Of a stretch of 64,000 bases of DNA, positions 3,804 through 62,386 are shown piece after piece; position 1 is the stretch's first letter, and each line of letters opens with the position of its first letter. The stretch spans positions 686 to 64,685 of the forward strand of contig CAZAOV010000003.1 in NCBI GenBank assembly GCA_964486995.1. The letters run 5' to 3'. The notes below the pieces were generated by a model, which was not told the origin of the DNA, made no database searches, and saw only the letters and a program-made list of their open reading frames with translations. The stretch is from an uncultured Gammaproteobacteria bacterium (GTDB taxonomy: Bacteria; Patescibacteriota; Patescibacteriia; SG8-24). Made by a program: the position numbers and the translations under genes.

Positions 3804-3807
3804 TAAT

Positions 3808-15494: not shown

Positions 15495-15495
15495 A

Positions 15496-17742: not shown

Positions 17743-17748
17743 ATAAAT

Positions 17749-20043: not shown

Positions 20044-20089
20044 GAATAACTTGTTGATGACATGCCGAAGTTATGCCGAAGCGTGTTAA

Positions 20090-34041: not shown

Positions 34042-34163
34042 TTGCGTACGAAAAATCGTCAGATAGTCTAATAAAGCACATATCCACATATCGAACCTGT
34101 TTTCGCTTGTGGATATGTGTTTATATTTTGTCATAGCTCATTAAAAAAATAGAGGAGGTTAAA

Positions 34164-40291: not shown

Positions 40292-40371
40292 TCATTCCCG
40301 CGAAGGCGGGAATCCATGATTCATCAGCTAGAGCGTTTCCGCACCGTGGATTCCCGCCTTCGCGGGAATGA
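40292..40371. promoter_or_regulatory. Pair of 25-bp palindromic sites in inverted orientation (TCATTCCCGCGAAGGCGGGAATCCA ...30 nt... TGGATTCCCGCCTTCGCGGGAATGA) upstream of the TolB-like gene
   Basis: Exact reverse-complement copies were read from the sequence. Each is itself a hairpin (attcccgc/gcgggaat). Confidence 0.55.
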
Positions 40372-44266: not shown

Positions 44267-45061
44267 TCATTTTTCGTCAGGTTCGTGACTCCAGCCCCTC
44301 TCGGTCTCGCACATACCGGTTATGGTGGTCATGAAATCGATGGTCAGCTTCATGGCGTGATACATCGGTTCGTTGATGCATACCAGAGTGGCGCAGTCCT
44401 CGTCGTCGCTCGTCTCTTCGGTCGGCAGCATGCCGGCCAGGCAGACACCCACCGCCTTGAGGTTGGTAAACGTATCCTTGTCGAAACCGACTCGAATGTC
44501 CAGACGTTCCACTGGCTCGGTCGGCTCCTCGCAACTGCAGTTTGGTCGGCCACAACCGGTGCCTCCCTTGCTGATGCAGTTGGGTCCGCAGTCGTGACTC
44601 TCGGAGCATTCGTGGTCGTGTGACTCGTCGCAGTCGTCGGCCTGGTCGCAATTGCTGCAATCGCCATCGCATTGATGCTGTTGCGCCGAGTAGGAGAAGA
44701 CCCGCCAGCGCGCATCGATTACGATGTTTACATGGTCCGCGATGTTGTATCGAGTACGTACGGCGCGCTCGAATAGGAACAAGAGCGCATTGATGAGTAG
44801 TGCGTGCGGGCGCATGCGCGGTAGATGGTTGGCATTTGGGTCGTCCGGCTGCCGCGAGATTTCCACCGCCCGCTCACGCGCATCGACGAACAGCGCATAC
44901 AAGCGCTTGATCTCCGGTTCGGTAATCGTGCAGAGCTGCTGAAAATTTGGCTCGTCGTCGAGTTCTGGCGTCTTGGTCGGCGCTACCCCCGTGTCGGCAT
45001 CAAGGCGCAGATTCTGCGCCAGTCGATCAACGGTGGACTTGGTGAGCATCCACATGGACAT
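44267..45061 (-). CDS. Hypothetical Cys/His/Asp-rich protein, paralog C of a three-gene family
   Basis: IKRLYALFVDARERAV...IADHVNIVIDARWRVFSYS, then CDGDCSNCDQADDCDESHDHECSESHDCGPNC...C.C. Aligns with the two upstream genes. Confidence 0.5.
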   Translation of the reverse strand: MSMWMLTKSTVDRLAQNLRLDADTGVAPTKTPELDDEPNFQQLCTITEPEIKRLYALFVDARERAVEISRQPDDPNANHLPRMRPHALLINALLFLFERAVRTRYNIADHVNIVIDARWRVFSYSAQQHQCDGDCSNCDQADDCDESHDHECSESHDCGPNCISKGGTGCGRPNCSCEEPTEPVERLDIRVGFDKDTFTNLKAVGVCLAGMLPTEETSDDEDCATLVCINEPMYHAMKLTIDFMTTITGMCETERGWSHEPDEK

Positions 45062-45157
45062 TCAGCCTCCTTTCAATGAACAGTTTTTAGGTTACGCCCG
45101 CAATGAGGCAACGTCAATAATGACAAAATTACCCGAGTAAATCGGGTGATGTGCTGA

Positions 45158-45532
45158 CTATTTTGTCAGGTCGAGCGCAATCACTTGCCAGCCCTGAACA
45201 GTCCAGATATTTGAATCTTGGACATCGAGAAGTTTGGGCCGGCGTCGGCGGAGGCCGTAGTAGAACGTCGTGCGGATAGCATCGATGGCGAAACTGGCCT
45301 GCTTGATACGACGAACGTCTTCCTCGGGTGGTTGATACTCGCCCGTGCCGACGTCGCAGATGGAAAGGTGTTCGGCGATTTCCGTCCCGCCAAAGTGGTA
45401 GTAGCTATATAGCCGCTTGAGATCGTCGTCGTCGATGGCACCAATCAAGTGACACGTGGGTGATCCACCCGTTGATGCAGTTCTGGTTCTACGATTTTGG
45501 TGCTGGCGACATCTTTTTCGAGATATCGCCAT
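45158..45532 (-). CDS. Hypothetical protein, paralog B (LKRLYSYY...NIWTVQGWQVIALD)
   Basis: Shares the (I/L)KRLY..., RR.....A..I, and (I/V).(V/T)(V/I)...W(R/Q)V blocks with its neighbours. Confidence 0.4.
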   Translation of the reverse strand: MAISRKRCRQHQNRRTRTASTGGSPTCHLIGAIDDDDLKRLYSYYHFGGTEIAEHLSICDVGTGEYQPPEEDVRRIKQASFAIDAIRTTFYYGLRRRRPKLLDVQDSNIWTVQGWQVIALDLTK

Positions 45533-45546
45533 TATTTAAATATGTC

Positions 45547-46017
45547 TTACTCCTTTACTTCTTCGTCAGTGCCTGACGATTGCTCCGGCTTATTCTGTTT
45601 TCCCGCAGCCGGACAAGCCGCCGAGCAGCTGCCACACATCGAGGGCGGGGAAGTGGAATATACTCGCCAACCTTCCACCACCACGATTTCGCGTGAGTCC
45701 GTAATGTCATAAGTGAATCGCATGTCAGCATCGAGCAGAAGCTTGAACGACTGCATGATATTCATCCACCGACGCAAACCAATCGCGTCCGCATCTTCCG
45801 GATTTGTCGCTTGGCGACGCAGGCGATGCATCGTCAATGCCTGCTCGCGCGCTTGCTGTATCAACGAATACATCTGCTGGGCACCGTTCGCATCCAGCAC
45901 TCCATGAAACTGAATATCCGGAATCTTCTCATACTCATCCGGATCATCCGGAGCCAACACAATGTCCGAATCCAACCCATGCATCCCAGCCAACGCCTCA
46001 ACGATGTCCTTGCGCAT
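45547..46017 (-). CDS. Hypothetical protein, paralog A (QQMYSLIQQAREQAL...REIVVVEGWRVYSTS...CGSCSAAC)
   Basis: First gene of the minus-strand operon. Shares conserved blocks with paralogs B and C. Has a C-terminal CxxCxxxC. Confidence 0.45.
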   Translation of the reverse strand: MRKDIVEALAGMHGLDSDIVLAPDDPDEYEKIPDIQFHGVLDANGAQQMYSLIQQAREQALTMHRLRRQATNPEDADAIGLRRWMNIMQSFKLLLDADMRFTYDITDSREIVVVEGWRVYSTSPPSMCGSCSAACPAAGKQNKPEQSSGTDEEVKE

Positions 46018-46169
46018 ATCTCCTCCGTTTTAATGGACGGACTTACATTATATATAAGCGCATTTTGACGTCAAACATCAGGAGATAAAATAACCCGGCT
46101 ATTTTGGGGATTATATAGACAGGCCACCGCATGGGCTTGACGTTTTTATGAGGTGGCCTTATTATGCCA

Positions 46170-46196
46170 TTAGCAGTCCATGGGTTAGACTGCTAA
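46170..46196 (+). promoter_or_regulatory. CIRCE-like HrcA operator variant TTAGCAGTC-N9-GACTGCTAA
   Basis: The consensus CIRCE is TTAGCACTC-N9-GAGTGCTAA. Here the CA(C>G)TC and GA(G>C)TG positions change symmetrically. It lies 80 nt upstream of hrcA. Confidence 0.65.
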
Positions 46197-46207
46197 TCCA
46201 TTAATAT

Positions 46208-46270
46208 CCTGCCTGTCTGTACTTTCTTGAGTACAGACAGGCAGTACTTGAGAAAGTACAGACAGGCAAG
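46208..46270 (+). promoter_or_regulatory. Second N9 inverted repeat CCTGCCTGTCTGTAC-TTTCTTGAG-GTACAGACAGGCAG, followed by a third half-site (TACTTGAGAAA-GTACAGACAGGCAAG) abutting the hrcA start
   Basis: Read directly from the sequence. Same 9-nt-spacer geometry as CIRCE but with unrelated arms. The half-site GTACAGACAGGCA(A)G occurs twice in direct orientation. Confidence 0.55.
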
Positions 46271-46275
46271 AATGC

Positions 46276-46977
46276 ATGAGCGACTCACCAGAAAAAAGAA
46301 AGCTGCGCATACTGAAGGCTGTGGTGCGCGAGTATTTGGAGACGGCCGAACCAGTCAGCTCTGGAGCTTTAGTTTCTAAATACGACTTGGGAGTTTCGCC
46401 GGCGACGGTTCGTAATGATATGGTCGAGCTGACCGAACGCGGATTACTGGAACAGCCGCACACTTCGGCTGGACGTCGGCCGACCGAAGCTGGGTATCGG
46501 CTGTATGTGCAGGAGTTCGTCGGCGACGGCATTCGAATTATGGAAGACGTGATTTGTCAGGTGCAGTTCATGGCTGCGGAACTGGCTCGCCAGCGCAAAG
46601 CCGCAGCGCAGCATTTTGCACGCTATGTGTCCGAGCTTACCGGCGAGACCGCGTTCGTCAGTTATAACGATGCGGTGTTTATGACTGGTGTCAGCAACCT
46701 CTTCCGCAAGCCGGAGTTCCGCACGCTCGAATTAATGCAGGACTTCTCGGTCATGTTCGACCAGATTGATGACTTGGTGCGTGACGTGCGGCCGCGAATG
46801 AACGCCGATATTGCTATTTATATCGGTCGGGAAAACCCTTTCTGTCCACGGCTATCGTCGGTGCTGACCAGTTGGGATCGGGGTGAGGGTCTAATTGGCA
46901 TCATCGGTCCGACTCGTATGGACTATGAATTAAACGTTGGCGTCATGCGTCAGGTGCATGAGGCTTTGGAGACATAA
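46276..46977 (+). CDS. hrcA: Heat-inducible transcription repressor HrcA
   Basis: RKLRILKAVVREYLETAEPVSSGALVSKYDLGVSPATVRNDMVELTERGLLEQPHTSAGRRPTEAGYRLYV is the HrcA N-terminal wHTH. It precedes grpE-dnaK-dnaJ. Confidence 0.9.
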   Translation: MSDSPEKRKLRILKAVVREYLETAEPVSSGALVSKYDLGVSPATVRNDMVELTERGLLEQPHTSAGRRPTEAGYRLYVQEFVGDGIRIMEDVICQVQFMAAELARQRKAAAQHFARYVSELTGETAFVSYNDAVFMTGVSNLFRKPEFRTLELMQDFSVMFDQIDDLVRDVRPRMNADIAIYIGRENPFCPRLSSVLTSWDRGEGLIGIIGPTRMDYELNVGVMRQVHEALET

Positions 46978-46989: not shown

Positions 46990-47529
46990 ATGGACGAGGA
47001 GAATAACAAAAAAGATTCGAGCACTGATGGATCGAGTGAAGGAGTGAAGGAGAAAAAGAGTGAAGGAGATGGGTGTCAGTGCGAGCAGATGACCGAGGTG
47101 AAGATTGTGGAGGAGAACCTCGATTACAAAGACGCTCATGCGCGCGCGGTGGCCGACTACGATAATTTGAAGAAAGAAACCGCTCGGTTGCGTAGCGAAT
47201 ATGCGCGGTATGCGGCTTGTGAGGTGGTCGAACAGATGCTGCCGGTGCTGGATAATCTGAATAAGGCACTCGAGCAGGCTCCGGAAGAATGCGCCCGATG
47301 GGTGGACGGCATCAAGCTCATTCGTGAGCAGTTTCAGAAAGTGATGGAGGCAGCAGGCGTTCAACCGCTTGGCGCGGAAGGCGAGGAGTTCGATCCCGTC
47401 ATTCACGAGGCGCTCATGCGTGAGGAACGTGAGGGCATCAAATCAGACACCGTAGTCCAGGTCATCGAACCCGGCTACAAAATGCACGATAAAACATTAA
47501 GACCCGCCAAGGTAATAGTGGCGGAATAG
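46990..47529 (+). CDS. grpE: Nucleotide exchange factor GrpE
   Basis: DNLKKETARLRSEYARYAA..VVEQMLPVLDNLNKAL...FDPVIHEALMRE...VVQVIEPGYKMHDKTLRPAKVIVA matches GrpE. Confidence 0.85.
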   Translation: MDEENNKKDSSTDGSSEGVKEKKSEGDGCQCEQMTEVKIVEENLDYKDAHARAVADYDNLKKETARLRSEYARYAACEVVEQMLPVLDNLNKALEQAPEECARWVDGIKLIREQFQKVMEAAGVQPLGAEGEEFDPVIHEALMREEREGIKSDTVVQVIEPGYKMHDKTLRPAKVIVAE

Positions 47530-47662
47530 AATAATCATCAATGCTGTCGTCCTGAGCGAAGCGCCAGGATCCCGTTGATTCAAGGTGAGCGTTCATCTTG
47601 CTGTCACGGGATCGTCAGCTACGCTCGCGATGACATATAGAAATGAACGAACAATTAATGAT

Positions 47663-49576
47663 ATGCCAAAGATATTAGGAATCGACCTAGGAACAACCAA
47701 CTCATGCATGGCCGTCATCGAAGGTGGCCAGCCCAAGGTCGTTGAAAATAAAGAGGGTAATCGCACCACCCCGTCAGTGGTCGCGGTGACCAAAACCGGT
47801 GAGCGTCTAGTGGGCCAGATGGCCAAGCGACAGGCGGTCGTTAATCCGCATAACACCCTGTATTCGGTGAAGCGGTTCATTGGTCGTCGTTGGGAGGATA
47901 GTGAAGTGCAGGAGGAAAACGGCATGTTGCCGTTCGAGCTGGTCAAAGCCGGTGACGGCATAAAGGTGAAGATGGCGGACAAGGAATACACTCCGCAGGA
48001 GATTTCCGCCATGGTTCTGCAGAAGATGAAGGCTGATGCCGAGGAGAAACTCGGCGAGACAATCACCGAAGCGGTCATCACCGTTCCGGCGTATTTCGAT
48101 GACGCTCAGCGTCAAGCCACCAAGAACGCGGGTGAGATTGCGGGCCTGACCGTGAAGCGTATCATCAACGAACCTACGGCCGCCGCGCTCGCTTACGGTT
48201 TCGATAAAAAGCAGGGCAAGATTGTGGTGTACGACTTGGGTGGCGGCACGTTCGACGTATCCGTGCTGGACGTTGCCGAGGACACCGTGGAGGTGATGGC
48301 CACCAACGGCGATACCCATTTGGGCGGCGACGATTTCGATCAGAAACTGATTGCCTGGATTATCGGTGAGTTCAAGAAAGCCGAGGGAATCGATCTCTCC
48401 AAGGACACTCTGGCGTTACAGCGCATCAAGGAGTCGGCCGAGAAAGCGAAGATTGAGCTGTCGACCGCACAGCAGACCGAAATCAACCAGCCGTTCATCA
48501 CTTCCGACGAGAACGGCCCGAAGCACCTGGTACTCAATATGACCCGCGCCAAGCTCGAGGAGCTGGTGGGGGATTTGGTGACCAAGACCCTAGAGCCGTG
48601 CAAGAAGGCGTTGGCCGATGCCGGTATCGACAAGGGCGCCATCAACGAGGTGGTCATGGTCGGTGGTATGACCCGCATGCCTCTAGTGCTGAAGATCGTC
48701 GAGGAGTTTTTCGGCAAGAAGCCGAACGTTTCCGTGAATCCGGACGAGGTGGTCGCCATGGGTGCGGCGGTTCAGGCCGGTGTGCTGCAGGGCGACGTGA
48801 AGGACGTGCTGTTGCTGGACGTCACTCCGCTGTCACTCGGTATCGAAACTCTGGGCGGCGTGATGACGAAACTTATTGACCGCAACACTACCATCCCGAC
48901 CTCTAAGACCCAGACTTTCTCCACTGCCGCCGACAATCAGGCGTCGGTCGAGATTCATGTTTTGCAGGGAGAGCGCGAGTTCTCTAAGGACAACAAGACT
49001 TTAGGGCGATTCATCTTGGATGGCATTCCGCCGTCACCGCGCGGCATTCCGCAGATCGAGGTAGCGTTTGATATTGACGCCAATGGCATTCTGTCGGTGA
49101 GCGCCAAGGACAAGGCTTCCGGCAAGGAGCAGAAGATTACCATTACCGCCTCGACCGGCCTGTCCGAGGAAGAAATTGAAAAGATGAAGAAAGACGCCGA
49201 AGCGCACGCCGAAGAGGACAAGAAGAAGAAAGAAATGGTCGAGCTCAAGAACAACGCCGAGAGCATGGTGTATACCACCGAGAAGATGCTCAAGGATTAT
49301 GCCGACAAGGTTGATGAAGAGAAGCTGAAGCCAGTGAAGGAAAAGCTCGAAGCGCTGAAGGCCGTCAAAGACAGCGAAGACGCCGAAGCCATCAAGAAAG
49401 CCGCCGACGAACTCGGCGAGGCCGCCCAAGTTATCGGTACTGAGATGTACCAGAAGGAGCAGGAAGCCGCGGCCGCCGCCGGTGGCGCCGACGCCAAACA
49501 AGAACAACCCGCCGACGGTGAAGCCAAAAAAGACGACGGCCCGATTGATGCGGAGTTTGAGGAGAAGAAAGATTAA
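47663..49576 (+). CDS. dnaK: Molecular chaperone DnaK (Hsp70)
   Basis: [40 protein letters not shown]. The track ORF begins 78 nt upstream in a structured leader; the conserved N-terminus fixes the start at 47663. Confidence 0.95.
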
Positions 49577-49594: not shown

Positions 49595-49891
49595 ATGCAA
49601 TCTCAACAACAGAACCAAAAACAACTCCAACTAAAAGCCGACGACGCAACCCTCAAAGGCGTGTACACCAACAACATGCAGGTTGCACACACCAAGGAGG
49701 AGTTCATCGTTGACTTCATGAACATGTTCCCGCCGGTGGCGACGCTGAACGCGCGGGTCATCGTGTCGCCCGGACACATGAAGCGCATGCTCGCCGCGCT
49801 TGCCGAGAACGTCAAGCGCTACGAAGAAACCCATGGCGTCATCGAAGCGGCCAACGCCCCGGAGAACGAGATGGGTTTCAAGACTGCGTAG
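49595..49891 (+). CDS. DUF3467 family protein, inserted between dnaK and dnaJ
   Basis: LKGVYTNNMQVAHTKEEFIVDFMNMFPP matches the DUF3467 core (YAN...V.HT.EEF.LDF). 98 aa. Confidence 0.55.
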   Translation: MQSQQQNQKQLQLKADDATLKGVYTNNMQVAHTKEEFIVDFMNMFPPVATLNARVIVSPGHMKRMLAALAENVKRYEETHGVIEAANAPENEMGFKTA

Positions 49892-50035: not shown

Positions 50036-51115
50036 ATGGCAGGAGACTACTACGACCTACTAGGAATCCAAAAAAACGCCTCACAAGACGAAGTGAAGCG
50101 TGCTTTTCGTAAACTCGCCAAGGAATATCATCCGGATCGTGGCGGAGACGAGAAGAAGTTCAAGGAAATCAACACGGCCTATCAGACACTGGGCGACGAA
50201 AAGAAGCGCGCTCAATACGACCAGTTTGGTCATTCCGCCTACGAACAGATGGGCGGCATGGGCGGAGGCCCGCAAGGTAATCCGTTCGGCGGCGGTTTCG
50301 GCGGCGCGCAAGGCTTCAACATCAACATGGAAGACTTGGGTGACCTGTTTGGTTCCGCGTTCGGCGGGGCGTTCGGCGGCGGCGGTCGATCGCGCGGCCC
50401 CAAACGCGGACGTCATATCGAAATGGACATCCCGCTCACGTTCGAAGAAGCCGCGTTCGGCGTGGAGAAAAAAATCAATCCATACAAAACCGTCACCTGC
50501 GACGATTGCGAAGGAACCGGGGCCGAGAAAGGCACCAAAATGAATACCTGCACCAACTGCGACGGAGCCGGCCAAGTCAAAACAGTACAGAACACCATTC
50601 TTGGGAGCTTTCAAGCCGTTCGGCCCTGCACCCGCTGCAGCGGTGAGGGCAAGACCCCAGAAAAACTCTGCTCAACCTGCGGCGGTGCCGGCGTCATCAA
50701 GAAAGCCAAAGAAATCGAAGTAAAAATTCCAGCTGGCATCAACGACGGCGAGGTGTTGCGCGTGGGCGGTGAAGGCGAAGCGGTCAAAGGCGGGCGTGCC
50801 GGTGACCTGTATCTCACCATGCACCTAAAGCCACACAATAAATTCGAACGCGACGGTTTTAACGTGTACGCAGAAGAAGAAATTTCTTTTGCCCAAGCCG
50901 CTCTTGGCGACAAAGTAGAAACCGACACTCTAGATGGCAAGGTAGATTTAAAAATCCCAGCCGGCGTCCAACCGGAAACCGTGCTCAGACTCAAGGGTAA
51001 AGGTGTGCCGTTCCTCAAGGGGTCTGGCCGCGGTGATCACTACGTTACTATCAAAGTGAAAGTCCCCGCCAAACTCTCGCGCAAGCAAAAGAAGATTCTC
51101 GAGGAATGGGATTAA
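50036..51115 (+). CDS. dnaJ: Molecular chaperone DnaJ
   Basis: J-domain DYYDLLGIQKNASQDEVKRAFRKLAKEYHPDRGG. Gly/Phe-rich linker. Four CxxCxGxG zinc-finger repeats. Confidence 0.9.
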   Translation: MAGDYYDLLGIQKNASQDEVKRAFRKLAKEYHPDRGGDEKKFKEINTAYQTLGDEKKRAQYDQFGHSAYEQMGGMGGGPQGNPFGGGFGGAQGFNINMEDLGDLFGSAFGGAFGGGGRSRGPKRGRHIEMDIPLTFEEAAFGVEKKINPYKTVTCDDCEGTGAEKGTKMNTCTNCDGAGQVKTVQNTILGSFQAVRPCTRCSGEGKTPEKLCSTCGGAGVIKKAKEIEVKIPAGINDGEVLRVGGEGEAVKGGRAGDLYLTMHLKPHNKFERDGFNVYAEEEISFAQAALGDKVETDTLDGKVDLKIPAGVQPETVLRLKGKGVPFLKGSGRGDHYVTIKVKVPAKLSRKQKKILEEWD

Positions 51116-51132
51116 CAATCACGCGCTCGAGA

Positions 51133-51200
51133 AAAAACCGTCAGACTTGTTTTATGGGAGAGGCGTAGCCGATGCCTTAAAACAAGTCTGACGGTTTTTT
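51133..51200. repeat. Palindromic repeat element, copy 2: arms AAAAACCGTCAGACTTGTTTTA / TAAAACAAGTCTGACGGTTTTT around a variable 22-nt centre. Likely acts here as the terminator of the dnaK operon.
   Basis: Same 22-bp arms as the element at 6838-6904 (1 mismatch). The central loop differs. Flanked by A-run/T-run. Confidence 0.7.
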
Positions 51201-54664: not shown

Positions 54665-57600
54665 ATGAAGTACGCTGTATCCACCCGAACACATTGGGCG
54701 ATGCTTATTGTGCTGACGGTTGTTTTTGTATTTGTTTCATTTTTTACCTCAGTCGATTTGGTTCGCGCAGTAACGTATTGCCCCTATGACAGCACACAAG
54801 CGACCTGCGAATGTCCCACGTCCGGTCCTGGGGTGACCTGTATTGAGCCGCAGCTCTACGCCCAGGGTTCTTGCTACAACGATGTCCGGCCGTGCGCTTC
54901 GAATCAGCGCATGAATTGCGATACCGGCAGTTGCGTCTGTAACACGCCCGATTATCCGTGTTCCGGCTGTACCGCGGCTCAGACCACAGTGGGCGCGATT
55001 TGCGATCACCGTTCGACCGACGCTGGCGATTGTGCCGACAGCTCTGAATACACTAGCCAGTGCGGAGCATGGACTTGCCCTGCAGGTACGACTCTGTGTA
55101 ATTCTCCGGCCCCCGGGGTATGTGTACCCAACCGCACCTGTCCGCCGGGTATGACTTGGGACGTTTGTAGTGACACTTGCTCAACGTACTACGTTTTGAC
55201 CAATCCAACCCCAGAGGTTTCGCCACAGCCGGCCAACCCAGAAATCGAAGGTAATTTCACCGTGTTTGGTGACGATGCCGGAGAGGGTGATATCTACATG
55301 TCCAACGGCAAGGCATTGCGCGTGGACGGAACCGGTTCCACCACTCTGAATATCGGCAACTGGGGCGGCGGCGGCTTTTCGTTCGAGGCCTTTGGCTCAC
55401 TCAAGGCCGACGATATCACGACTGACACCGGCAACATTGATTCTACGACCGGCACTCTAAATCTTGGAGGCGGCGCATCTTCTAGCGGATGTACGGTTAC
55501 CACCGCTGGAGACTACAGCTGCAGCGGTGATTTTGTCGAAGCCGGTGCGCCACTATCGAACAAGTATTTGGCGTATGACAGTTACGTGCAGAGCAACAAC
55601 CCCTTCAGCCCCAAAGGAAAATTTTTCATCCCGGAAATTAATAACGGATTCTTTCGTGGTGAATCTAGATTTGCCGTAAATCATACTGGATTCGATCATT
55701 TCTGCTCGACCAATTATCTTTTTGATAACAATTATGAAAGTGGGTGCATCATCGGCACTGGCGGTGGACCTGCCGTAGTTACTATTGATTTGACGGCAAA
55801 AACTGAGTTTTCACCGACTTCAGGTATTGTCTATCCTCAAGGCTATATTTACTTCAACATAAATTATACATTTGGCATTCAGAGTGTTAGCGGTCGGATG
55901 TTTTGGTCGCACCCGTCTAATGGCACGTCTGGTTGGGTAACTCTGTCCGCAGAAGATGTTAGTGCAGCCAGTCAGTTACAACAGTGGAGGATGACTGTTC
56001 CGGCAGTTGTGAATTACGTCAAAAAATTTGAATTTACCATCGAAGCACTCCCCACTGCACCCAGTCCACCCAATCCGCAGCATAACGGCTGGATAACCGA
56101 GATTGAATACTTTCAGACGCGTCCAGCTGGCGCTGCTCCGTCGCTTTTTACAAAATACAAGGAAAATAGGACCTATTCGAATTTTTATTTAAATGATGCT
56201 GCCAATTCCCCGGTAGTGACGTTGGACACCTCAGGAAACATCGATGCGGAGGGAGATATTGGAGTGGGTGATGCGCTGTGCCTGCGCGGCGATTGTATCA
56301 CCGATTGGATGGATGGTTTTACGCCAGGCAGCTCTAGCGGTGATACGTTGCGCTGGAACGGCACCGATTGGATTGCGAGTTCCAATCTGACAAATACGGG
56401 TACGCGGGTTGGCATAGGCACGGATACCCCGGCGGGCGCGTTGGATGTTCATCCTGGAGGTGCGCAAACTGCTGGCGACTTGGTGGTCGATACTACCGGC
56501 AAGACAGTATACGTCGGTCGCATTAGCACCACGGGGGGCGACAACAGCAATTTCGTGTTTAGAGATCGGCTGGGCAACGCCAGATTTACGCTGTCCCCTG
56601 GCATGCATCGCTGGAATCCGGAAGTCGGACACATTATGCTGATGCCGTCATCTTCCTATGGTGTTGCGGTTGGTGCGGCAAATGCCGGTACAGCCAAACT
56701 ATATGTAAACGGCAGTCTCGGCGTTAATACCAGCAGTCCGGCATATGATGTCGACATTGACGGAGACGTACGTATCACGGGGCAGTTGATAGTTGAAGGT
56801 GGCGGCGTAATTGGCGGCAGTGGCACGGCTAATACCATACCCAAATTTACCGCCGGTTCGATAATTGGTAATTCTGCCATTACAGAATCTGGCGGAAACG
56901 TTGGTATCGGAGACGTATCCCCAGCCACCATCCTGGATTTGAATAATACCTATGGAGATCCCGGAACAGTTCCAAATAAAATCGCACTGTGGTATGGCGG
57001 AGCCAATAACTATATGGGTTTCGGTGTGAGTGGTGGTGATTTAGATTATTTCTCTCAGGGGAATCATCGTTTCTATACTCAGTACAATGGCACACCCGGC
57101 ACTGAAAAGATGGTGATTGCGGACAACGGTAACGTTGGTATCGGCACATCTAGTCCCGTGCTCAAACTTCAGGTCACGGGTGATATACAGGCCAGTGATG
57201 GAATAGGTTTTGGTGGTCTGTCCCCGGGATATGTTTTAGGCGGGAGGCCGTTTAGCATGGCTGGCCGGAGTCCGCAAGAAGATGCTGGTGCCGCCGTTTT
57301 GTTCGGTAGCGGTGCATACGGACCAAACTATATCGAATTGATGCGGCAAAGTTACGGGATTTTAAGCAATAGCCACATCTACACCACTGCCAATATCTAT
57401 TCGTATGGACATACATACTTAGGCGACGCAGCCACTGATACCGTTTTTTGGCGAAGTGCTAATAGTTACATATATAACGATCACAATTTCCGTGACGCTG
57501 TGACCGGCAGTACGATGTTGTATCTGGACAATGATACGCAATATGTTGGAGTCAATACCACTACGCCGACTCGAACCCTGTCGGTTGCTGGAGATATCGC

Positions 57601-60600
57601 GGTTGGCAGCAACCAATACATAACTGAGTATGGCGCTAGTCTCCGTGTCGGGAACCCCTCGGGATACGTGAGCATTACCCCGCAAAATACTAGCTATGCG
57701 CATTTTTACACTGATAGACCTAAATTCATTTTTAATAAGCCGATAGATGTTATCGGCGGTCGTTACGGCTCCTATACCGGTAACGTAATTTTAAGTGCTG
57801 GGAGCATTCGGGATGATTTGGTCATCGATAATGCTACCGGTGTCACCACCATCAATAATGGCTTGCGTCTGCCGACCGGTGCGGTGGCCGGTCATGCCCT
57901 AGTGTCAGACGCCAGCGGTAACGCTACTTGGCAGGCGTTGAGTGGAATTGGCGGCGGAGGTACACAGAATTACTTGCCGAAGTTTTCGGCGGCGACCACA
58001 TTAGCTGATTCCCAAGTTTATGATAACGGCTCAAATGTTGGTATCGGTACAGCCACCCCCGAGTATAAATTGGACGTTAATGGAGACATCGTTAATCGCG
58101 GCCGACTCTATCAATATACTCAGCTTGGCTCGTCAAACGCAGCACACGGCATCAGCTGGTATCAACCGAGTTACGTGACTTGGATTGACTACATGGCCGC
58201 ACCTGGTACGGTCAACGCACCAAATGGCACGCCGGCACCGGCCGATTCAGATAACGGCGTCACTCATTGGGCGCGTCGATTTAACATCGAAAATCAGGCG
58301 AACTTCGGCTGGGTGTTCGAATCCGGCACAAACAACGCCACACAGCCGAGCGTCAAGCTGTCCATTAACGCCGCTTCTGGAAACTTACATACAGTCGGCT
58401 CCGGTTATTTTGACGATAATGTCGGCGTGGGAACTACGACTCCTAGCGCACCATTGCATGTAGCATCAGCAGATTCGGCAAATCCGGGCATCCAGGTAGG
58501 TGACGGCAGTACCGGTCGAATTCAGATTGGCGTAAACGGCTGGTTTGATGATGGGACATATTTCAGCCCGATTGGCGGCAGATCACTCTATGTACGCTCA
58601 ACTACTCCGGCTACTTACATTTATTCTCCCAATATCTTTCTTGGTTCTACTACCGGTCAGTACGTTCGTGTACGTGACAATCAGTTGTTTGGCGACGATT
58701 GGGTAATCAATAATGGTTTCGGTGGCAATTGGGGGATCGGCACCATCACCCCGGCGTACACCCTAGATGTCAATGGGACCGTTCGTGTTACTGACTCGCT
58801 GATAATCGACGGCAGTAACGCCATTACCGACCCAGACGACACCAAGAACACCATGCTTGGCTATAATGCCGGTCAGAACATCACTACTGGCTGGGGTGTT
58901 ACATTGATTGGTGAATACGCCGGTGCCGAACACACGACCGCTTATGCCAACACATTCGTTGGTTATCAGTCCGGCGAATCGGTGTCGGGTGTGGGAAATG
59001 CAACTTCGAACGTGGTCATGGGTTTTCGCGCTGGTCGATGGCTTACGGGATCAGAAAATACTCTAATCGGTACCGAAGCTGGAGCCGGATATAACGCAGG
59101 AAGTTGTTGCGATTATGTTGGCGGAGAGAATTCTGGCTCAGAGAATACCTTTGTCGGTATTTTTGCTGGAAATCGCAACTCCACCGGCAGCTATAATGTT
59201 GGCCTGGGTAAGCATGCCGGGTACTACAATACCGTCGGTAACCTAAATACCTATCTTGGTTATCAAGCCGGCCTGTATCACCAGGGGAGTCAGAACATCA
59301 TTATCGGCGGGGATGCCGGGGCGCAAACGAGCGGCGATTCCAGTACCGGGAATAACCTAATCTTGATTGGCTACGGAATTCAGCCACGCACCACTGCCGT
59401 CAGCGATTATTTGAACATTGGCGACACTTTGTATGGTGATTTGGCTGCCGGACGAATTGGTATCGGGACAGCTGCTCCTGCCAGGGCGCTTGACTTAAGC
59501 AGTTCTGGCCAAATAACTTTCGGTAACAACGTGACCTTGGATTCGACCGCCGGTATTTATTGGTACAGCGGTTCTGATTACGGCATCTATCGCGGTGCCG
59601 GTGCTTGGTCGAGCCCTGACTATCGGCAACTGTACATGAAGTGGTCCACGGGCCTGGTTTTAGACGGAGGTAGCGCATACGGCAAGAGTGGCACCACTAT
59701 TCAGCCTGGCGCTGGAAATGTTGGTATTGGTACTTATCCCTCGGCGTATAAGTTAGATGTTAATGGTCAGGTAAACGGTACCGAGCTGTGTATCGCCGGT
59801 GACTGTCGTAGCGTTTGGCCCGGTGCCGGTGCGACGAGCGGATCTGGTGTGCAGTATGGCACGACGGTTTGGTCGGGCGGCAGCACCTTGACTTCGGTTG
59901 GCACCGGACAGCCCGGACAGCTGTATATTTCCAAAGGGGCTTCCGCATATCCAGAATTTGTCACGATGAGCGGTGATGCGACCATTTCTTCGACCGGTGT
60001 AGTGACTGTTGCAAACGGTTCACATACGCATAGTGCCGCTAATATCACATCAGGAATATTGGCGGTAGCCCGCGGTGGAACCGGCAGCAGCACCCTGAGC
60101 AATCTCATCACCCTTGGCACGCATACGACCGGCAATTACGTTAACGATATAACCGCTGGCACCGGAATTACGGTCAGTGGAGTGGCCGGCGAAGGCTGGA
60201 GTCCGACCCTTGCGGTGGACGAGGGTGCATTAACCCTCGGTAACATCGGCGGCTCGCTGTCATTGGGAACTAAGACCAGTGGAGACTACGTTGCGTCACT
60301 GATTGCCGGTAGTGGGGTAACCATAACTGGCGGGACGGGTGAAGGTTCCACCCCCACCATCAGCGTGAGCGGTGGCGCAGTGCCAAGCGGACCGGCCGGC
60401 GGAGACTTAAACGGCAACTATCCTAATCCGCAGGTTGATAACAATTCACATACGCACATTTCCAGCAATATTACCGGCTCTGCGGCTGGGCAGTTTATGG
60501 TTTCAAATTCATCAAATGTTCCTACATGGGTAAGTATGAGTGGTGACGCTTCGATGAATTCCGCTGGGAGTGTAACCGTGAGTAACAACTCACACGTCCA

Positions 60601-62386
60601 TACATTGGGGTCATACACCACCGGTGATTATGTCGAGGGCTTGGTTGCCGGCTCCGGAATTAGCATTACTGGAAGCGGTGGTGAGGGTTCGCTTCCGGTC
60701 ATTACTGCCACTGGTGCCCCGCCGTCCGGTAGCGCTGGCGGTGATTTGAGTGGCAGTTATCCTAACCCACAAGTTAATAATAATTCCCACTACCACGTGG
60801 ACTCAAATATCTACGGAGGTGCCAGCGGTCAGGTGCTGATTGCCGACAATAGCGGATACGGTGATTGGAGAACCGTGGGCGGGGACGCGAGCATCAACTA
60901 TGTGGGTACATTGACCATCAATTCCAATGCTGTGGACTTAGGCGGAAACACTACCGGAGACTATGTTAAAGGTCTGCAGGCCGGCTCCGGCATCAGCATC
61001 AGCGGCAGCGGCGGCGAAGGCTCCAGTCCGATTATTAGCTCTACAATCAGTAGTCCGTGGTCGGTCAGCGGTTCAAATGTATATCGTAGTTCTGGCATGG
61101 TCGGAATACTGGACTCTTCACCGAGCTATCCGCTCGACGTCAATGGCATCATCCGTTCAACTAGCAGCATCTACGGAAACTACGGTTCATTCACCACTGG
61201 CTTGTCAGCCGGTACCGAATCATTATTCCTGGTCACCGATTCAAGTGGCCGGGTGGACGTCAATGGCACGTTTTGTATCAATAGTTCTTGTCGCACTACC
61301 TGGCCGTCTGCATCCAGCCCCTGGACCACCAGCGGCAGCAATGTCTATCGATCTTCCGGTAATGTCGGCATAGGCACGTCCGCGCCGTCGTATAATCTGG
61401 ACGTCTCCGGCACCGGACGTTTTACCGGAACAGTCTCGACCGGAGGTGCGAGCGTCTCTTCCTCTTACGGTATCCGCGCGCAGGGTTCAACGATGGGCGG
61501 TTACTTTAACGATACGGACGGTACTTATGTGTATATCGGTTACGGCACCAGTGGAATCTACACGCCCGGCGGAGCGTATTTTGGAGGTCCAGTCGGAATC
61601 AATACCTCGTCTCCAGTCGGTGATTTCCAGGTCATCGGTGACGCGAACGTAAGCGGCAGTCTGTTCGGAAATTTTGTATATGGCAACAGCGCCTCGTTTT
61701 CGGGAACCGTGGAAGGCGACGATTTCTTCTCGCCTGGCAACGCCGCCTTCGGCGGAGCGACAGCCAGCACCAGCTATGGGCTAAAGGCGCAGGGTTCTAC
61801 TATGGGCGGATGGTTTTATGACGAGGGCGGAACGTCAAGAACTTATCTGGCTTACGGTGGTTATGGGGTATATGTTTCGACAGGTAGTGCCGCAAAACCA
61901 GGTGGCGGCAGCTGGACATCTACCTCTGATAGGCGAACCAAGAAGGATATCAGTTCTTTTAACGGGGGGCTAGATCTTGTCGATCAGCTTAATCCCGTCA
62001 ATTACACATATAACGGCTTGGCCGAAACACCGGAGGGATTGGAAGGCATAGGGTTCATCGCACAAGATATCATGGATGTGACTCCGTGGATGGTGGAAAG
62101 CAACTCGATAAAGCTTCATCCGGAAGATGAAGAAGAAAGTGACGTATATTATGTTAATCCCAGTTCCCTGCCTTTCATAAATTTGAATGCTATCAAGGAT
62201 TTGAAGGCGCTGATTGATGATGAGAATGCCGAGTTGGCCTCTTTCAAGATTGACACCGATGGTCGTATGGTTGAGGTGGAAGCGGCGGTGCGGAAGTTGG
62301 AGGAAGAAAATGTAGAGTTAAAAGCTAAGACCGAAGAATTGGAACAGCGATTACAGCAGCTTGAATGGCAGATGTTGAGCAACTAG
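54665..62386 (+). CDS. 2573-aa secreted/surface fibre protein: signal/TM, an N-terminal Cys-rich module of about 150 aa, a long Gly/Thr/Ser-rich beta-helix-like region with phage tail-fibre-type repeats, then a C-terminal Peptidase_S74 (endosialidase-type intramolecular chaperone) domain and a coiled-coil tail
   Basis: N-terminus MKYAVSTRTHWAMLIVLTVVFVFVSFF. About 30 Cys in residues 40-190. Recurrent GNVGIGT..P...LDVNG units (at least 7 copies). Three C(I/L).GDC(R/I)(S/T).W motifs. Recurrent NNSH.H and GDYV..L.AGSGI.I.G units. C-terminal TSDRRTKKDISSFNGGLDLVDQLNPVNYTYNG...GIGFIAQDIMDVTPWMV matches the S74 autoproteolytic chaperone signature (S-D-R-x-K...Y.Y...G.IAQE). Confidence 0.8.
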   Translation: MKYAVSTRTHWAMLIVLTVVFVFVSFFTSVDLVRAVTYCPYDSTQATCECPTSGPGVTCIEPQLYAQGSCYNDVRPCASNQRMNCDTGSCVCNTPDYPCSGCTAAQTTVGAICDHRSTDAGDCADSSEYTSQCGAWTCPAGTTLCNSPAPGVCVPNRTCPPGMTWDVCSDTCSTYYVLTNPTPEVSPQPANPEIEGNFTVFGDDAGEGDIYMSNGKALRVDGTGSTTLNIGNWGGGGFSFEAFGSLKADDITTDTGNIDSTTGTLNLGGGASSSGCTVTTAGDYSCSGDFVEAGAPLSNKYLAYDSYVQSNNPFSPKGKFFIPEINNGFFRGESRFAVNHTGFDHFCSTNYLFDNNYESGCIIGTGGGPAVVTIDLTAKTEFSPTSGIVYPQGYIYFNINYTFGIQSVSGRMFWSHPSNGTSGWVTLSAEDVSAASQLQQWRMTVPAVVNYVKKFEFTIEALPTAPSPPNPQHNGWITEIEYFQTRPAGAAPSLFTKYKENRTYSNFYLNDAANSPVVTLDTSGNIDAEGDIGVGDALCLRGDCITDWMDGFTPGSSSGDTLRWNGTDWIASSNLTNTGTRVGIGTDTPAGALDVHPGGAQTAGDLVVDTTGKTVYVGRISTTGGDNSNFVFRDRLGNARFTLSPGMHRWNPEVGHIMLMPSSSYGVAVGAANAGTAKLYVNGSLGVNTSSPAYDVDIDGDVRITGQLIVEGGGVIGGSGTANTIPKFTAGSIIGNSAITESGGNVGIGDVSPATILDLNNTYGDPGTVPNKIALWYGGANNYMGFGVSGGDLDYFSQGNHRFYTQYNGTPGTEKMVIADNGNVGIGTSSPVLKLQVTGDIQASDGIGFGGLSPGYVLGGRPFSMAGRSPQEDAGAAVLFGSGAYGPNYIELMRQSYGILSNSHIYTTANIYSYGHTYLGDAATDTVFWRSANSYIYNDHNFRDAVTGSTMLYLDNDTQYVGVNTTTPTRTLSVAGDIAVGSNQYITEYGASLRVGNPSGYVSITPQNTSYAHFYTDRPKFIFNKPIDVIGGRYGSYTGNVILSAGSIRDDLVIDNATGVTTINNGLRLPTGAVAGHALVSDASGNATWQALSGIGGGGTQNYLPKFSAATTLADSQVYDNGSNVGIGTATPEYKLDVNGDIVNRGRLYQYTQLGSSNAAHGISWYQPSYVTWIDYMAAPGTVNAPNGTPAPADSDNGVTHWARRFNIENQANFGWVFESGTNNATQPSVKLSINAASGNLHTVGSGYFDDNVGVGTTTPSAPLHVASADSANPGIQVGDGSTGRIQIGVNGWFDDGTYFSPIGGRSLYVRSTTPATYIYSPNIFLGSTTGQYVRVRDNQLFGDDWVINNGFGGNWGIGTITPAYTLDVNGTVRVTDSLIIDGSNAITDPDDTKNTMLGYNAGQNITTGWGVTLIGEYAGAEHTTAYANTFVGYQSGESVSGVGNATSNVVMGFRAGRWLTGSENTLIGTEAGAGYNAGSCCDYVGGENSGSENTFVGIFAGNRNSTGSYNVGLGKHAGYYNTVGNLNTYLGYQAGLYHQGSQNIIIGGDAGAQTSGDSSTGNNLILIGYGIQPRTTAVSDYLNIGDTLYGDLAAGRIGIGTAAPARALDLSSSGQITFGNNVTLDSTAGIYWYSGSDYGIYRGAGAWSSPDYRQLYMKWSTGLVLDGGSAYGKSGTTIQPGAGNVGIGTYPSAYKLDVNGQVNGTELCIAGDCRSVWPGAGATSGSGVQYGTTVWSGGSTLTSVGTGQPGQLYISKGASAYPEFVTMSGDATISSTGVVTVANGSHTHSAANITSGILAVARGGTGSSTLSNLITLGTHTTGNYVNDITAGTGITVSGVAGEGWSPTLAVDEGALTLGNIGGSLSLGTKTSGDYVASLIAGSGVTITGGTGEGSTPTISVSGGAVPSGPAGGDLNGNYPNPQVDNNSHTHISSNITGSAAGQFMVSNSSNVPTWVSMSGDASMNSAGSVTVSNNSHVHTLGSYTTGDYVEGLVAGSGISITGSGGEGSLPVITATGAPPSGSAGGDLSGSYPNPQVNNNSHYHVDSNIYGGASGQVLIADNSGYGDWRTVGGDASINYVGTLTINSNAVDLGGNTTGDYVKGLQAGSGISISGSGGEGSSPIISSTISSPWSVSGSNVYRSSGMVGILDSSPSYPLDVNGIIRSTSSIYGNYGSFTTGLSAGTESLFLVTDSSGRVDVNGTFCINSSCRTTWPSASSPWTTSGSNVYRSSGNVGIGTSAPSYNLDVSGTGRFTGTVSTGGASVSSSYGIRAQGSTMGGYFNDTDGTYVYIGYGTSGIYTPGGAYFGGPVGINTSSPVGDFQVIGDANVSGSLFGNFVYGNSASFSGTVEGDDFFSPGNAAFGGATASTSYGLKAQGSTMGGWFYDEGGTSRTYLAYGGYGVYVSTGSAAKPGGGSWTSTSDRRTKKDISSFNGGLDLVDQLNPVNYTYNGLAETPEGLEGIGFIAQDIMDVTPWMVESNSIKLHPEDEEESDVYYVNPSSLPFINLNAIKDLKALIDDENAELASFKIDTDGRMVEVEAAVRKLEEENVELKAKTEELEQRLQQLEWQMLSN

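What the first reader, a model, noticed from the sequence alone, without database searches (positions are those of the whole stretch)
46150..46280. Double, non-canonical operator architecture upstream of the hrcA-grpE-dnaK-dnaJ operon
Two inverted repeats with CIRCE geometry (9-nt arms or longer, 9-nt spacer) lie back to back. The first is TTAGCAGTC-N9-GACTGCTAA, a symmetric two-position variant of the canonical TTAGCACTC-N9-GAGTGCTAA. The second is CCTGCCTGTCTGTAC-N9-GTACAGACAGGCAG, which has the same spacing but unrelated arms. Its right half-site GTACAGACAGGCA(A)G is repeated again immediately before the hrcA ATG. The second element could be a site for a different regulator, a degenerate second HrcA site, or an RNA structure in the hrcA 5'UTR (the repeat runs to within 5 nt of the start codon, leaving no obvious SD). 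The dnaK leader (47530-47662) carries further inverted repeats (TGTCGTCCTGAGCG...CGCTCGCGATGACA; GATCCCG...CGGGATC).
Basis: seen in the sequence. Interest (0 to 1): 0.65.

Follow-up and report, generated by a model that had tools for sequence, protein, structure and literature searches.

The report
Second operator-like repeat beside hrcA CIRCE
Upstream of the heat-shock operon of an uncultivated Patescibacteria (CPR) bacterium, the usual HrcA operator carries a symmetric variant, and next to it lie three copies of a clade-specific box that in sister lineages lies upstream of the promoter, so it is probably a site for an unidentified second regulator that here also makes a very stable hairpin in the hrcA leader RNA.

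Summary
The repeats are real, but the second one does not have CIRCE geometry. The window is from a Patescibacteria genome with the gene order hrcA-grpE-dnaK-DUF3467-dnaJ.

- **Core promoter and CIRCE.** A conserved sigma70-type promoter (TTGACG-17-TATTAT) is followed by TTAGCAGTC-N9-GACTGCTAA at 46170-46196. The same symmetric variant occurs in one sister lineage. Every other relative examined has the canonical CIRCE. The HrcA DNA-binding region is virtually unchanged between the two groups.
- **Second element.** Its conserved core is TGCCTGTC-N18-GACAGGCA, with perfect 15-bp arms and a 6-nt loop in this genome. A third box follows 25 nt downstream. A fourth, half-decayed site lies upstream of the -35 box.
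- **Relatives.** In two sister lineages the same palindrome lies in untranscribed DNA centred at about -62 (and at about -112 in one of them). This argues for a DNA-level protein-binding site rather than a second HrcA site.
- **Leader RNA.** In this genome the copy lies in the leader at about +38 to +97. The transcript folds into a -42 kcal/mol hairpin that ends 4 nt before the AUG and is still folded at 75 C, so it is not a thermometer.
- **Distribution.** No other copy exists in the 64 kb window. The regulator and its regulon are unknown.

Overall this is a modestly interesting, lineage-specific variant of the known dual-operator heat-shock promoters.

The parts
46137..46165 (+). hrcA operon promoter: -35 TTGACG (46137-46142), 17-nt spacer, -10 TATTAT (46160-46165). 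The inferred transcription start is about 46172.
   Evidence: Promoter scan, 10 of 12 matches. The -35, spacer and -10 are conserved in six sister lineages. The start site is inferred, not measured.
46170..46196 (.). CIRCE variant TTAGCAGTC-N9-GACTGCTAA. Position 7 of each arm is swapped symmetrically (C to G, G to C). It overlaps the inferred transcription start.
   Evidence: The same variant with a different spacer occurs in L120/L171. The other distinct full palindromic CIRCEs at Patescibacteria hrcA loci have arms ending CTC, or CTT in one case.
46092..46125 (.). Upstream box U. The right half is GACAGGCC (46118-46125, extended ATATAGACAGGCCA). The left half has decayed to AACCCGGC (4 of 8 matches). 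It is centred at about -63, between the divergent promoters.
   Evidence: PWM score 16.6 bits. It aligns with the -62 sites of L003 and L171, including the TTTTGGGG spacer core.
46210..46243 (.). Downstream palindrome D: TGCCTGTC-N18-GACAGGCA, with perfect 15-bp arms at 46209-46223 / 46230-46244 and a 6-nt loop. It is centred at about +55 in the transcribed leader.
   Evidence: I3; 21.5 bits for each half. The geometry is identical to the two L003 sites.
46256..46268 (+). Third box, GTACAGACAGGCA. It belongs to the second copy of a 25-nt direct repeat (46219-46243 / 46244-46268, 80% identical).
   Evidence: (D1), (20.4 bits).
46207..46271 (+). Long leader hairpin: 28-nt arms and a 9-nt loop AGACAGGCA, giving 25 consecutive pairs including two G.U pairs, plus 2 closing pairs. 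It ends 4 nt before the AUG. The alternative is the short 15-bp (16 pairs as RNA) hairpin 46209-46244, at -28.3 kcal/mol.
   Evidence: (I1). Energy is -41.8 kcal/mol and it is still folded at 75 C. The reverse-complement strand folds equally well at -42.1 kcal/mol.
46276..46977 (+). hrcA, encoding the short 233-aa form typical of Patescibacteria.
   Evidence: Pfam HrcA and an HTH domain. Homologues of 226-256 aa are found across Patescibacteria.
45547..46017 (-). Divergent gene of 156 aa with unknown function and a Cys-rich C-terminus. Its promoter is TTGACG-16-TATAAT at 46074-46047 on the minus strand. It shares the intergenic region that carries box U.
   Evidence: It is homologous to the divergent genes of L003 (40% identity) and L120 (27%, E 1e-7).
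46121..46159 (.). Inverted repeat AGGCCACCGCAT / ATGAGGTGGCCT that brackets the -35 hexamer. It is found only in this genome.
   Evidence: I4. It is absent from the aligned relatives. Its significance is unknown.
47535..47646 (+). Long imperfect hairpin in the grpE-dnaK spacer, with no U-tract.
   Evidence: -52.2 kcal/mol, z = -5.5. Relatives L001, L002 and L171 carry equally long hairpins at this position with largely unrelated sequences.
51132..51200 (.). Bidirectional terminator-like hairpin after dnaJ, marking the end of the operon.
   Evidence: I1. A second copy of the same element lies at 6838-6904.

Best explanation
The hrcA-grpE-dnaK-DUF3467-dnaJ operon is driven by a conserved sigma70-type promoter. 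An HrcA operator, a symmetric single-position CIRCE variant, overlaps the transcription start. The second element is an array of a clade-specific box with consensus GTAYAGACAGGCA. Its functional unit is the palindrome TGCCTGTC-N18-GACAGGCA. Most likely this is the operator of a second, still unidentified dimeric DNA-binding protein that co-regulates hrcA and/or the divergent gene.

In sister lineages the operator lies in untranscribed DNA centred at about -62, with a second copy at about -112 in one lineage. In this genome the -62 copy has half decayed. A perfect copy plus an extra half-site, created by a 25-nt duplication, lies between CIRCE and the start codon at about +38 to +97. A bound protein there would act as a roadblock or repressor.

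Because this copy is transcribed, the leader RNA folds into a -42 kcal/mol hairpin that ends 4 nt before the AUG. This should strongly limit HrcA translation and/or stabilise the 5' end.

Shown: the sequences, their positions, their conservation in relatives and the predicted folding energies. Inferred: protein binding, the transcription start site and any regulatory effect.
For: - **Same geometry in three lineages.** The same 8-mer pair with 18-nt spacing (19 nt in L171) occurs in the window at 46210-46243, twice in L003 (2438-2471 and 2488-2521), and in L120/L171 as TGCCTGTC-N19-GACAGTCA.
- **Untranscribed in relatives.** In L003 and L171 the sites lie upstream of the hrcA -35 and between the divergent promoters, at a conserved distance. 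Centres are about -61.5 in L003, about -61 in L171 and about -63.5 for box U in the window, counted.
- **Phylogenetic footprint.** The only 6- and 7-mers shared by all three upstream regions derive from the motif: GACAGGC, AGACAG, ACAGGC and CCTGTC (P about 0.02-0.03). The spacers diverge while the 8-mers are kept.
- **Confined to this promoter.** In the PWM scan the four hrcA sites score 16.6-21.5 bits and the next best site in 64 kb scores 12.0. All four AGACAGGC 8-mers fall within 150 bp.
- **Precedent.** Helicobacter pylori HspR sites are centred 72 and 117 bp upstream of the groES and hrcA start sites, and HrcA binds the core promoter (PMC6032397).
- **Leader insertion.** The leader segment 46197-46271 is an insertion relative to L003, L171, L002 and L170.
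Against: - No candidate regulator was identified. No HspR/MerR, CtsR or other obvious partner gene lies next to the locus.
- Only three lineages carry the motif. Sister lineages L001, L002 and L170 at the same evolutionary distance lack it, so it is dispensable.
- The copies share internal spacer sequence (TTTTGGGG, TTGGGTAA). They are therefore related by descent or duplication, which could also fit a neutral local repeat.
- The centre-to-centre distance of the half-sites is 26 bp, about 2.5 helical turns, which is unusual for a simple dimer.
- A perfect 15-bp arm and a third repeat are more than an operator needs.
- The regulon, for example groESL, could not be examined. The genome-wide scan was swamped by chance hits.
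Confidence: 0.45

Rival explanations
1. The element acts purely at the RNA level in this genome. The leader hairpin, 27 bp ending at -5, or the switch between the short 15-bp hairpin and the long one, controls HrcA translation or mRNA stability and processing, for example as an RNase III substrate. The resemblance to the upstream boxes of relatives only reflects where the sequence was copied from.
For: - The minimum-free-energy structure contains the long hairpin (z = -7.8 for the leader). It is -41.8 kcal/mol against -28.3 for the short form.
- Two of the three mismatches in the 28-nt inverted repeat are G.U pairs on the sense strand.
- Relatives place the CIRCE hairpin itself 5-12 nt from the AUG, so a hairpin next to the AUG is a shared architecture.
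- The grpE-dnaK spacer carries lineage-specific long hairpins in four lineages, so structured untranslated regions recur in this operon.
Against: - The hairpin occurs in no relative, so there is no covariation support.
- The antisense strand folds equally well at -42.1 kcal/mol, so the G.U argument carries no energetic weight. It follows from CTTGAG being self-complementary.
- It does not explain box U at -63, nor the untranscribed copies in L003 and L171.
- No Rfam family matches. The only hits are sub-threshold generic miRNA-precursor hairpins.
Confidence: 0.25
2. The array is a non-functional local repeat. An old palindromic sequence near hrcA was duplicated, inverted and moved by slippage or recombination in a rearrangement-prone intergenic region, or it is the remnant of a small mobile palindromic element. 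It has no dedicated regulatory role.
For: - Copy number and position vary between lineages: 1, 2, and 1.5 plus a decayed copy.
- The copies share spacer sequence, which indicates descent.
- Three sister lineages lack it, and the L001 leader may hold a decayed copy (13 of 15 match, p about 0.004 before correction for multiple tests).
- The neighbourhood is rearranged. Paralogous Cys-rich genes have been gained or lost next to hrcA.
- The genome does contain other repeated hairpin families.
Against: - The 8-mer ends are kept exactly while the spacers drift.
- The -62 position is conserved in three lineages.
- There are no further copies in 64 kb or in the flanks of relatives.
- There are no hits in viral contigs.
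Confidence: 0.2
3. The element is a second, degenerate HrcA operator, giving a double CIRCE.
For: It is adjacent to CIRCE, palindromic and lies in an HrcA-controlled promoter.
Against: - The arms share nothing with TTAGCACTC. The spacing is 6, 8 or 18 nt rather than 9.
- The HrcA wHTH and wing are virtually identical (one V/A position differs) in lineages with and without the element.
- In relatives the box lies about 60 bp upstream, separate from CIRCE.
Confidence: 0.03
4. The near-perfect nested palindrome and the 25-nt duplication in the leader are an assembly or amplification artefact of the MAG contig.
For: The structure is found in a single assembly. Exact-protein look-ups found no second contig that carries this hrcA or grpE.
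Against: - The flanking sequence is collinear with relatives, and the reading frame and promoter are intact.
- The repeat copies differ at defined positions (80% identity), which is not typical of chimeric fold-back artefacts.
- Related boxes exist in independent assemblies.
Confidence: 0.05

Closest known systems
CIRCE / HrcA operator (TTAGCACTC-N9-GAGTGCTAA) of class I heat-shock operons
   Same: The first repeat has 9-nt arms and a 9-nt spacer. It lies immediately downstream of the -10 box of the hrcA-grpE-dnaK-dnaJ promoter, and an HrcA homologue is encoded directly downstream.
   Different: Position 7 of both arms is swapped (C to G, G to C). This variant is shared with only one sister lineage among the Patescibacteria hrcA loci examined. 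The HrcA DNA-binding region shows no accompanying change. The preserved symmetry may therefore reflect a need for base-pairing, since established knowledge holds that CIRCE also acts as an mRNA stem-loop in Bacillus subtilis. It could also reflect simple tolerance at that position.
Dual-repressor heat-shock promoters: HspR (HAIR) plus HrcA (CIRCE) in Helicobacter pylori and Campylobacter jejuni, and CtsR plus HrcA tandem operators in Staphylococcus aureus (the latter from general knowledge)
   Same: A second palindromic site, unrelated to CIRCE, lies at an HrcA-controlled hrcA operon promoter. In sister lineages it is centred at about -62 and -112, comparable to the H. pylori HspR sites centred 72 and 117 bp upstream (PMC6032397).
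   Different: The box sequence is neither HAIR nor a CtsR box. No HspR or CtsR gene was seen. In this genome the site lies downstream of CIRCE in the transcribed leader rather than upstream. Binding has not been shown.
Structured 5' leaders that occlude translation initiation regions (RNA thermometers such as ROSE and fourU; 5' stabiliser hairpins)
   Same: A hairpin abuts the start codon of a heat-shock regulator gene.
   Different: At -42 kcal/mol with 25 consecutive pairs it is predicted to stay folded at 75 C. Thermometers are weak, mismatched helices that melt at around 37-45 C. There is no Rfam match.

Membership tests
CIRCE/HrcA operator (first repeat, 46170-46196) | Inverted repeat with 9-nt arms close to TTAGCACTC / GAGTGCTAA separated by exactly 9 nt | tested here: met
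   TTAGCAGTC-N9-GACTGCTAA matches 8 of 9 positions per arm, is perfectly palindromic and has a 9-nt spacer.
CIRCE/HrcA operator (first repeat, 46170-46196) | Located at or just downstream of a vegetative-type promoter of a dnaK or groE operon | tested here: met
   It starts 4 nt after the -10 TATTAT of the hrcA-grpE-dnaK-dnaJ promoter. The position is identical in all relatives.
CIRCE/HrcA operator (first repeat, 46170-46196) | An HrcA repressor is encoded in the genome | tested here: met
   Pfam HrcA matches at E 1.8e-17.
CIRCE/HrcA operator (first repeat, 46170-46196) | HrcA binds the site and represses transcription | not testable with these tools
   This needs EMSA, footprinting or genetics.
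CIRCE/HrcA operator (second repeat, 46207-46271) | Arms resembling TTAGCACTC with a 9-nt spacer | tested here: not met
   The arms are CTGCCTGTCTGTACT / AGTACAGACAGGCAG with a 6-nt loop, and the conserved core is an 8-mer pair with an 18-nt spacer. There is no CIRCE match in the window other than 46170.
HAIR / HspR operator | Inverted repeat CTTGAGT-N7-ACTCAAG (consensus from general knowledge) | tested here: not met
   Only the half-site CTTGAGT (46226-46232) and a direct copy CTTGAGA (46247-46253; coordinates counted) are present. There is no ACTCAAG partner. CTTGAG occurs 31 times in the window.
HAIR / HspR operator | A MerR-family HspR gene, often in the dnaK operon | tested here: inconclusive
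   No MerR domain was found among the operon genes or the roughly 40 window ORFs scanned. The rest of the genome was not available.
CtsR operator | Tandem heptad direct repeat (A/G)GTCAAA-NAN-(A/G)GTCAAA (from general knowledge) | tested here: not met
   No such sequence lies in 46050-46290.
RNA thermometer (ROSE, fourU and similar) | A weak, imperfect hairpin that occludes the SD/AUG and melts within the physiological temperature range | tested here: not met
   The hairpin is -41.8 kcal/mol and its helix is intact in minimum-free-energy folds from 20 to 75 C. No Rfam thermometer family matched.
Intrinsic terminator / attenuator | A GC-rich hairpin followed by a U-tract | tested here: not met
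   The hairpin is followed by AGAAUGCAUG. The terminator scan found nothing at 46207-46280.
Dispersed palindromic repeat (REP/MITE-like) | Many copies scattered in intergenic regions of the same genome | tested here: inconclusive
   No copy lies outside the hrcA promoter in 64 kb or in the flanks of relatives. The whole genome was not available, and the public genome scan was saturated by chance hits.

The most novel reading that the evidence does not exclude
A small clade of Patescibacteria uses a previously undescribed DNA-binding regulator, with operator TGCCTGTC-N18-GACAGGCA, as a second controller of the hrcA-dnaK heat-shock operon alongside HrcA-CIRCE. In this genome the operator has turned over, moving from an upstream position at about -62 to a position in the leader. 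That converts it into a roadblock site and, at the same time, into an RNA hairpin that throttles translation of the HrcA repressor, rewiring HrcA autoregulation.
Probability: 0.3. Interest if true: 0.55.

Novelty: new variant of a known kind. Interest (0 to 1): 0.4.

Why it matters
Almost nothing is known experimentally about transcriptional regulation in Patescibacteria (CPR), which have very few recognisable regulators.

- A conserved, promoter-specific palindrome next to CIRCE would give a concrete and testable cis-element for finding a second heat-shock or stress regulator in this group.
- It also illustrates operator turnover: the same box lies upstream in sister lineages and inside the leader here.
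- The symmetric CIRCE variant, with no change in the HrcA recognition elements, is a small natural experiment on whether CIRCE symmetry is kept for the protein or for base-pairing.

The element is confined to a few closely related uncultivated lineages, so its general importance is limited.

Tried and rejected
- **Public genome scan.** The pattern had only 16 specified bases and was too unspecific.
- **Exact-protein look-ups.** Look-ups for the window's HrcA, for P0001 and for GrpE found nothing. The DUF3467 look-up returned only a 1.6-kb contig without the leader. No strain variant of the leader was obtained.
- **Divergent 156-aa protein.** The homologue search returned only the protein itself. 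The single-sequence AlphaFold model was unusable (pLDDT 43.5), so no fold search was run.
- **Rfam.** The leader gave only sub-threshold miRNA-precursor hits, which reflect a generic hairpin.
- **Viral contig scan.** A scan with a 21-base version of the motif found nothing.
- **Rejected readings.**
  - HAIR, CtsR, E. coli-type LexA (CTGT-N8-ACAG) and RheA-like readings do not fit by sequence inspection.
  - The thermometer reading is rejected on hairpin stability.
  - The argument that the missing SD is caused by the repeat is rejected because SD motifs are rare genome-wide.
- **Weak lead, not pursued.** Two TrmB-family regulators lie at 3051-4584, and the centre of the window palindrome reads TACT-N6-AGTA. 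This central palindrome is absent from the copies in relatives.
Full report
**What is in the window**

The region belongs to a Patescibacteria (CPR) genome. The HrcA encoded here is the short form of 233 aa. Its closest homologues are unnamed metagenomic proteins and proteins from 'Patescibacteria group bacterium' MAGs. The best named relatives are Candidatus Uhrbacteria, at about 61% identity.

The gene order is as follows:

| Gene | Coordinates |
|---|---|
| hrcA | 46276-46977 |
| grpE | 46990-47529 |
| dnaK | 47663-49576 |
| DUF3467 gene | 49595-49891 |
| dnaJ | 50036-51115 |

A long terminator-like hairpin at 51132-51200 closes the operon. A sigma70-type promoter, TTGACG-17-TATTAT, lies at 46137-46165. 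It is conserved almost base for base in six sister lineages.

**Check of the observation**

The first repeat is exactly as described: TTAGCAGTC-CATGGGTTA-GACTGCTAA at 46170-46196. It is the only CIRCE-like site in the 64 kb even with three mismatches allowed, against 0.01 expected.

The second repeat is real but was mis-measured.
- The perfect arms are 15 nt (46209-46223 / 46230-46244) with a 6-nt loop.
- A larger inverted repeat has 28-nt arms (46207-46234 / 46244-46271, 89% complementary) with 9 nt between them.
- A 25-nt direct repeat lies at 46219-46243 / 46244-46268.
- A fourth box, TATAGACAGGC, lies at 46114-46124 upstream of the -35.
- All four AGACAGGC 8-mers in the window fall within 46117-46267.
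- A PWM built from ten half-sites scores these four at 16.6-21.5 bits. The next best site anywhere in the window scores 12.0.

The dnaK-leader repeats fold into one long imperfect hairpin of -52.2 kcal/mol, z = -5.5.

The remark about a missing SD is not specific to this gene. Only about 10 of 42 genes here have an SD-like motif, and none of the five operon genes does.

**Comparative evidence**

All HrcA relatives above 80% identity were retrieved with their upstream DNA, together with several at 58-66% identity. The six close lineages form an unresolved star at 78-86% pairwise identity.

| Lineage | CIRCE | Second box |
|---|---|---|
| Window | TTAGCAGTC variant | Half-decayed copy centred at about -63.5, plus a perfect copy and an extra half-site in the leader |
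| L120/L171 | TTAGCAGTC variant, different spacer | One copy, TGCCTGTC-N19-GACAGTCA, centred at about -61 |
| L003 | Canonical | Two exact copies of TGCCTGTC-N18-GACAGGCA, centred at about -61.5 and -111.5 |
| L001 | Canonical | None; the leader may hold a decayed copy |
| L002, L170, L172, L121-L123 | Canonical | None |

*The CIRCE variant.*
- Every other distinct full palindromic CIRCE found at Patescibacteria hrcA loci has arms ending CTC. One has arms ending CTT, which is also a symmetric change.
- The HrcA winged-helix region, including the recognition helix SPATVRNDM and the wing PHTSAGRRPT, is identical in lineages with variant and canonical CIRCE.
- The double substitution therefore does not track a visible change in the repressor.
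- It may reflect tolerance at position 7 or selection to keep the two arms complementary.

*The second box.*
- The L003 and L171 copies lie between the predicted divergent promoters, so they are untranscribed in both directions.
- The window's box U aligns with these copies, including the TTTTGGGG spacer core. Its left half has decayed to 4 of 8 matches.
- Upstream of the -35, the only 6- and 7-mers common to the three lineages derive from the motif.
- The window's segment 46197-46271 is an insertion relative to L003, L171, L002 and L170. In those lineages the ATG follows CIRCE by 5-14 nt.
- The possible decayed copy in the L001 leader is a 13 of 15 match to L003 site B (p about 0.004 uncorrected).

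**Interpretation**

The conserved unit is 8-mer ends with a drifting 18-nt spacer, at a fixed position around -62 in untranscribed DNA. That is the signature of a protein-binding operator. It is neither an RNA element nor an HrcA site.

The arrangement in sister lineages is a second palindrome at about -62 and -112 plus CIRCE at the transcription start. This parallels the HspR plus HrcA promoters of Helicobacter pylori, where HspR sites are centred 72 and 117 bp upstream and HrcA covers the core promoter (PMC6032397). The box is not a HAIR site: only a CTTGAGT half-site is present, with no inverted partner. It is not a CtsR box either. No matching regulator gene was found in the window.

In this genome the operator has turned over. 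The upstream copy is decaying. A perfect copy with an extra half-site lies at about +38 to +97, where a bound protein would block elongation.

Because that copy is transcribed, the leader is predicted to fold into a hairpin of 25 consecutive pairs plus 2 closing pairs. Its energy is -41.8 kcal/mol and it ends 4 nt before the AUG. A 15-bp (16 pairs as RNA) alternative at -28.3 kcal/mol would form first during transcription. The long hairpin stays folded at 75 C, so it is not a thermometer. It has no U-tract, so it is not a terminator. The antisense strand folds equally well, so there is no strand-specific signal.

Structured untranslated regions recur in this operon. Four lineages carry long hairpins with largely unrelated sequences in the grpE-dnaK spacer. 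An RNA-level role, such as lowering HrcA translation, stabilising the 5' end or providing a processing site, is therefore plausible. It rests on one genome only.

**Rivals**

A neutral local repeat or the remnant of a small mobile palindrome cannot be excluded.
- For this reading: copy number and position vary, the copies share spacer sequence, three of six sister lineages lack the box, and the neighbourhood is rearranged. Paralogous Cys-rich genes have been gained or lost next to hrcA.
- Against it: the 8-mers are preserved exactly, the -62 position is conserved, and there are no other copies in 64 kb, in the flanks of relatives or in viral contigs.

An assembly artefact is unlikely but could not be tested, because no second contig with this leader was found. 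A second HrcA site is rejected.

**What could not be done**

It could not be run. groEL is not in the window.

**Verdict**

This is a genuine dual cis-element architecture. It combines a rare but conserved symmetric CIRCE variant with a clade-specific operator-like palindrome that has moved into the leader and forms a very stable RNA hairpin there. It is a new variant of the known dual-operator heat-shock promoters, with an unidentified binding partner. Interest is moderate (0.4): it is useful as an entry point into regulation in Patescibacteria, but it is confined to a few lineages and has no functional data.

Noticed in passing
window 47535-47646; L001 4237-4310; L002 4256-4375; L171 1471-1555: The grpE-dnaK spacer holds a long stable hairpin (-34 to -63 kcal/mol for the folded spacer) in four closely related lineages, but the sequences are largely unrelated. 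The arms are built from short internal repeats, for example GCTGTTGA in L171 and AGATGTT in L002. None has a U-tract. L003 and L172 have short spacers without a hairpin. The structure appears to be conserved while the sequence is replaced, which may point to an mRNA processing or stability element.
   Followed up: partly
window 6838-6904 and 51132-51200: Two copies of the same roughly 70-nt bidirectional terminator-like hairpin (AAAAACYGTCAGACTTGTTTTA...TAAAACAAGTCTGACRGTTTTT) with a compensatory C-G / T-A change in the stem. One copy terminates the dnaK operon. This is a dispersed hairpin family.
   Followed up: partly
window 44267-46017 (minus strand); L003 607-2373; L120 156-953; L001 2046-2813: A fast-evolving family of Cys-rich proteins with no Pfam match is always encoded divergently from hrcA in this clade. 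The window has three tandem paralogues of 156, 124 and 264 aa. L001 and L120 have only the long form, which carries a CGPNC...GCG(R/K)P(D/N)C(S/T)CEEP motif, next to hrcA. Function is unknown, and the link to hrcA suggests a stress or redox role.
   Followed up: partly
window 46121-46159: An inverted repeat, AGGCCACCGCAT / ATGAGGTGGCCT, brackets the -35 hexamer of the hrcA promoter. It is found only in this genome. The -10 is TATTAT here but TATAAT in all relatives.
   Followed up: no
window 62445-62485 and 34074-34122: A perfect 20-nt-arm palindrome, TTATCCACAGAATAGGTGCC / GGCACCTATTCTGTGGATAA, lies just upstream of cysS. A second inverted repeat contains TATCCACA / TGTGGATA. Both contain sequences resembling DnaA boxes.
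   Followed up: no
window 40292-40371: A perfect 25-nt inverted repeat, TCATTCCCGCGAAGGCGGGAATCCA / TGGATTCCCGCCTTCGCGGGAATGA, runs into the start codon of the ORF at 40368. From memory, it resembles a palindromic repeat common in many bacterial phyla. The dnaK-leader hairpin arms (GTCGTCCTGAGCGAAGCG...) look like the same type.
   Followed up: no
window 30321-31322 (GC 0.56 in 28-32 kb): An IS30-like transposase ORF (HTH_38 plus rve domains) lies in a segment whose GC content is higher than that of its surroundings.
   Followed up: no
window 13209-22336 and 54665-62386: Four tandem paralogous genes of about 750-760 aa. The first has an O-antigen ligase (Wzy_C) domain and TPR repeats. Separately, there is a giant ORF of 2573 aa.
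   Followed up: no
window 46276-46977 and homologues: HrcA in Patescibacteria is consistently about 226-256 aa, roughly 100 aa shorter than typical HrcA. It matches only positions 95-212 of the Pfam HrcA C-terminal domain model.
   Followed up: no
L124, L125, L132; L133-L139: Other Patescibacteria hrcA loci show another symmetric CIRCE variant (TTAGCACTT-N9-AAGTGCTAA). Several others are asymmetric, with a right arm of TTCTGCTAA or TACTGCTAA.
   Followed up: partly
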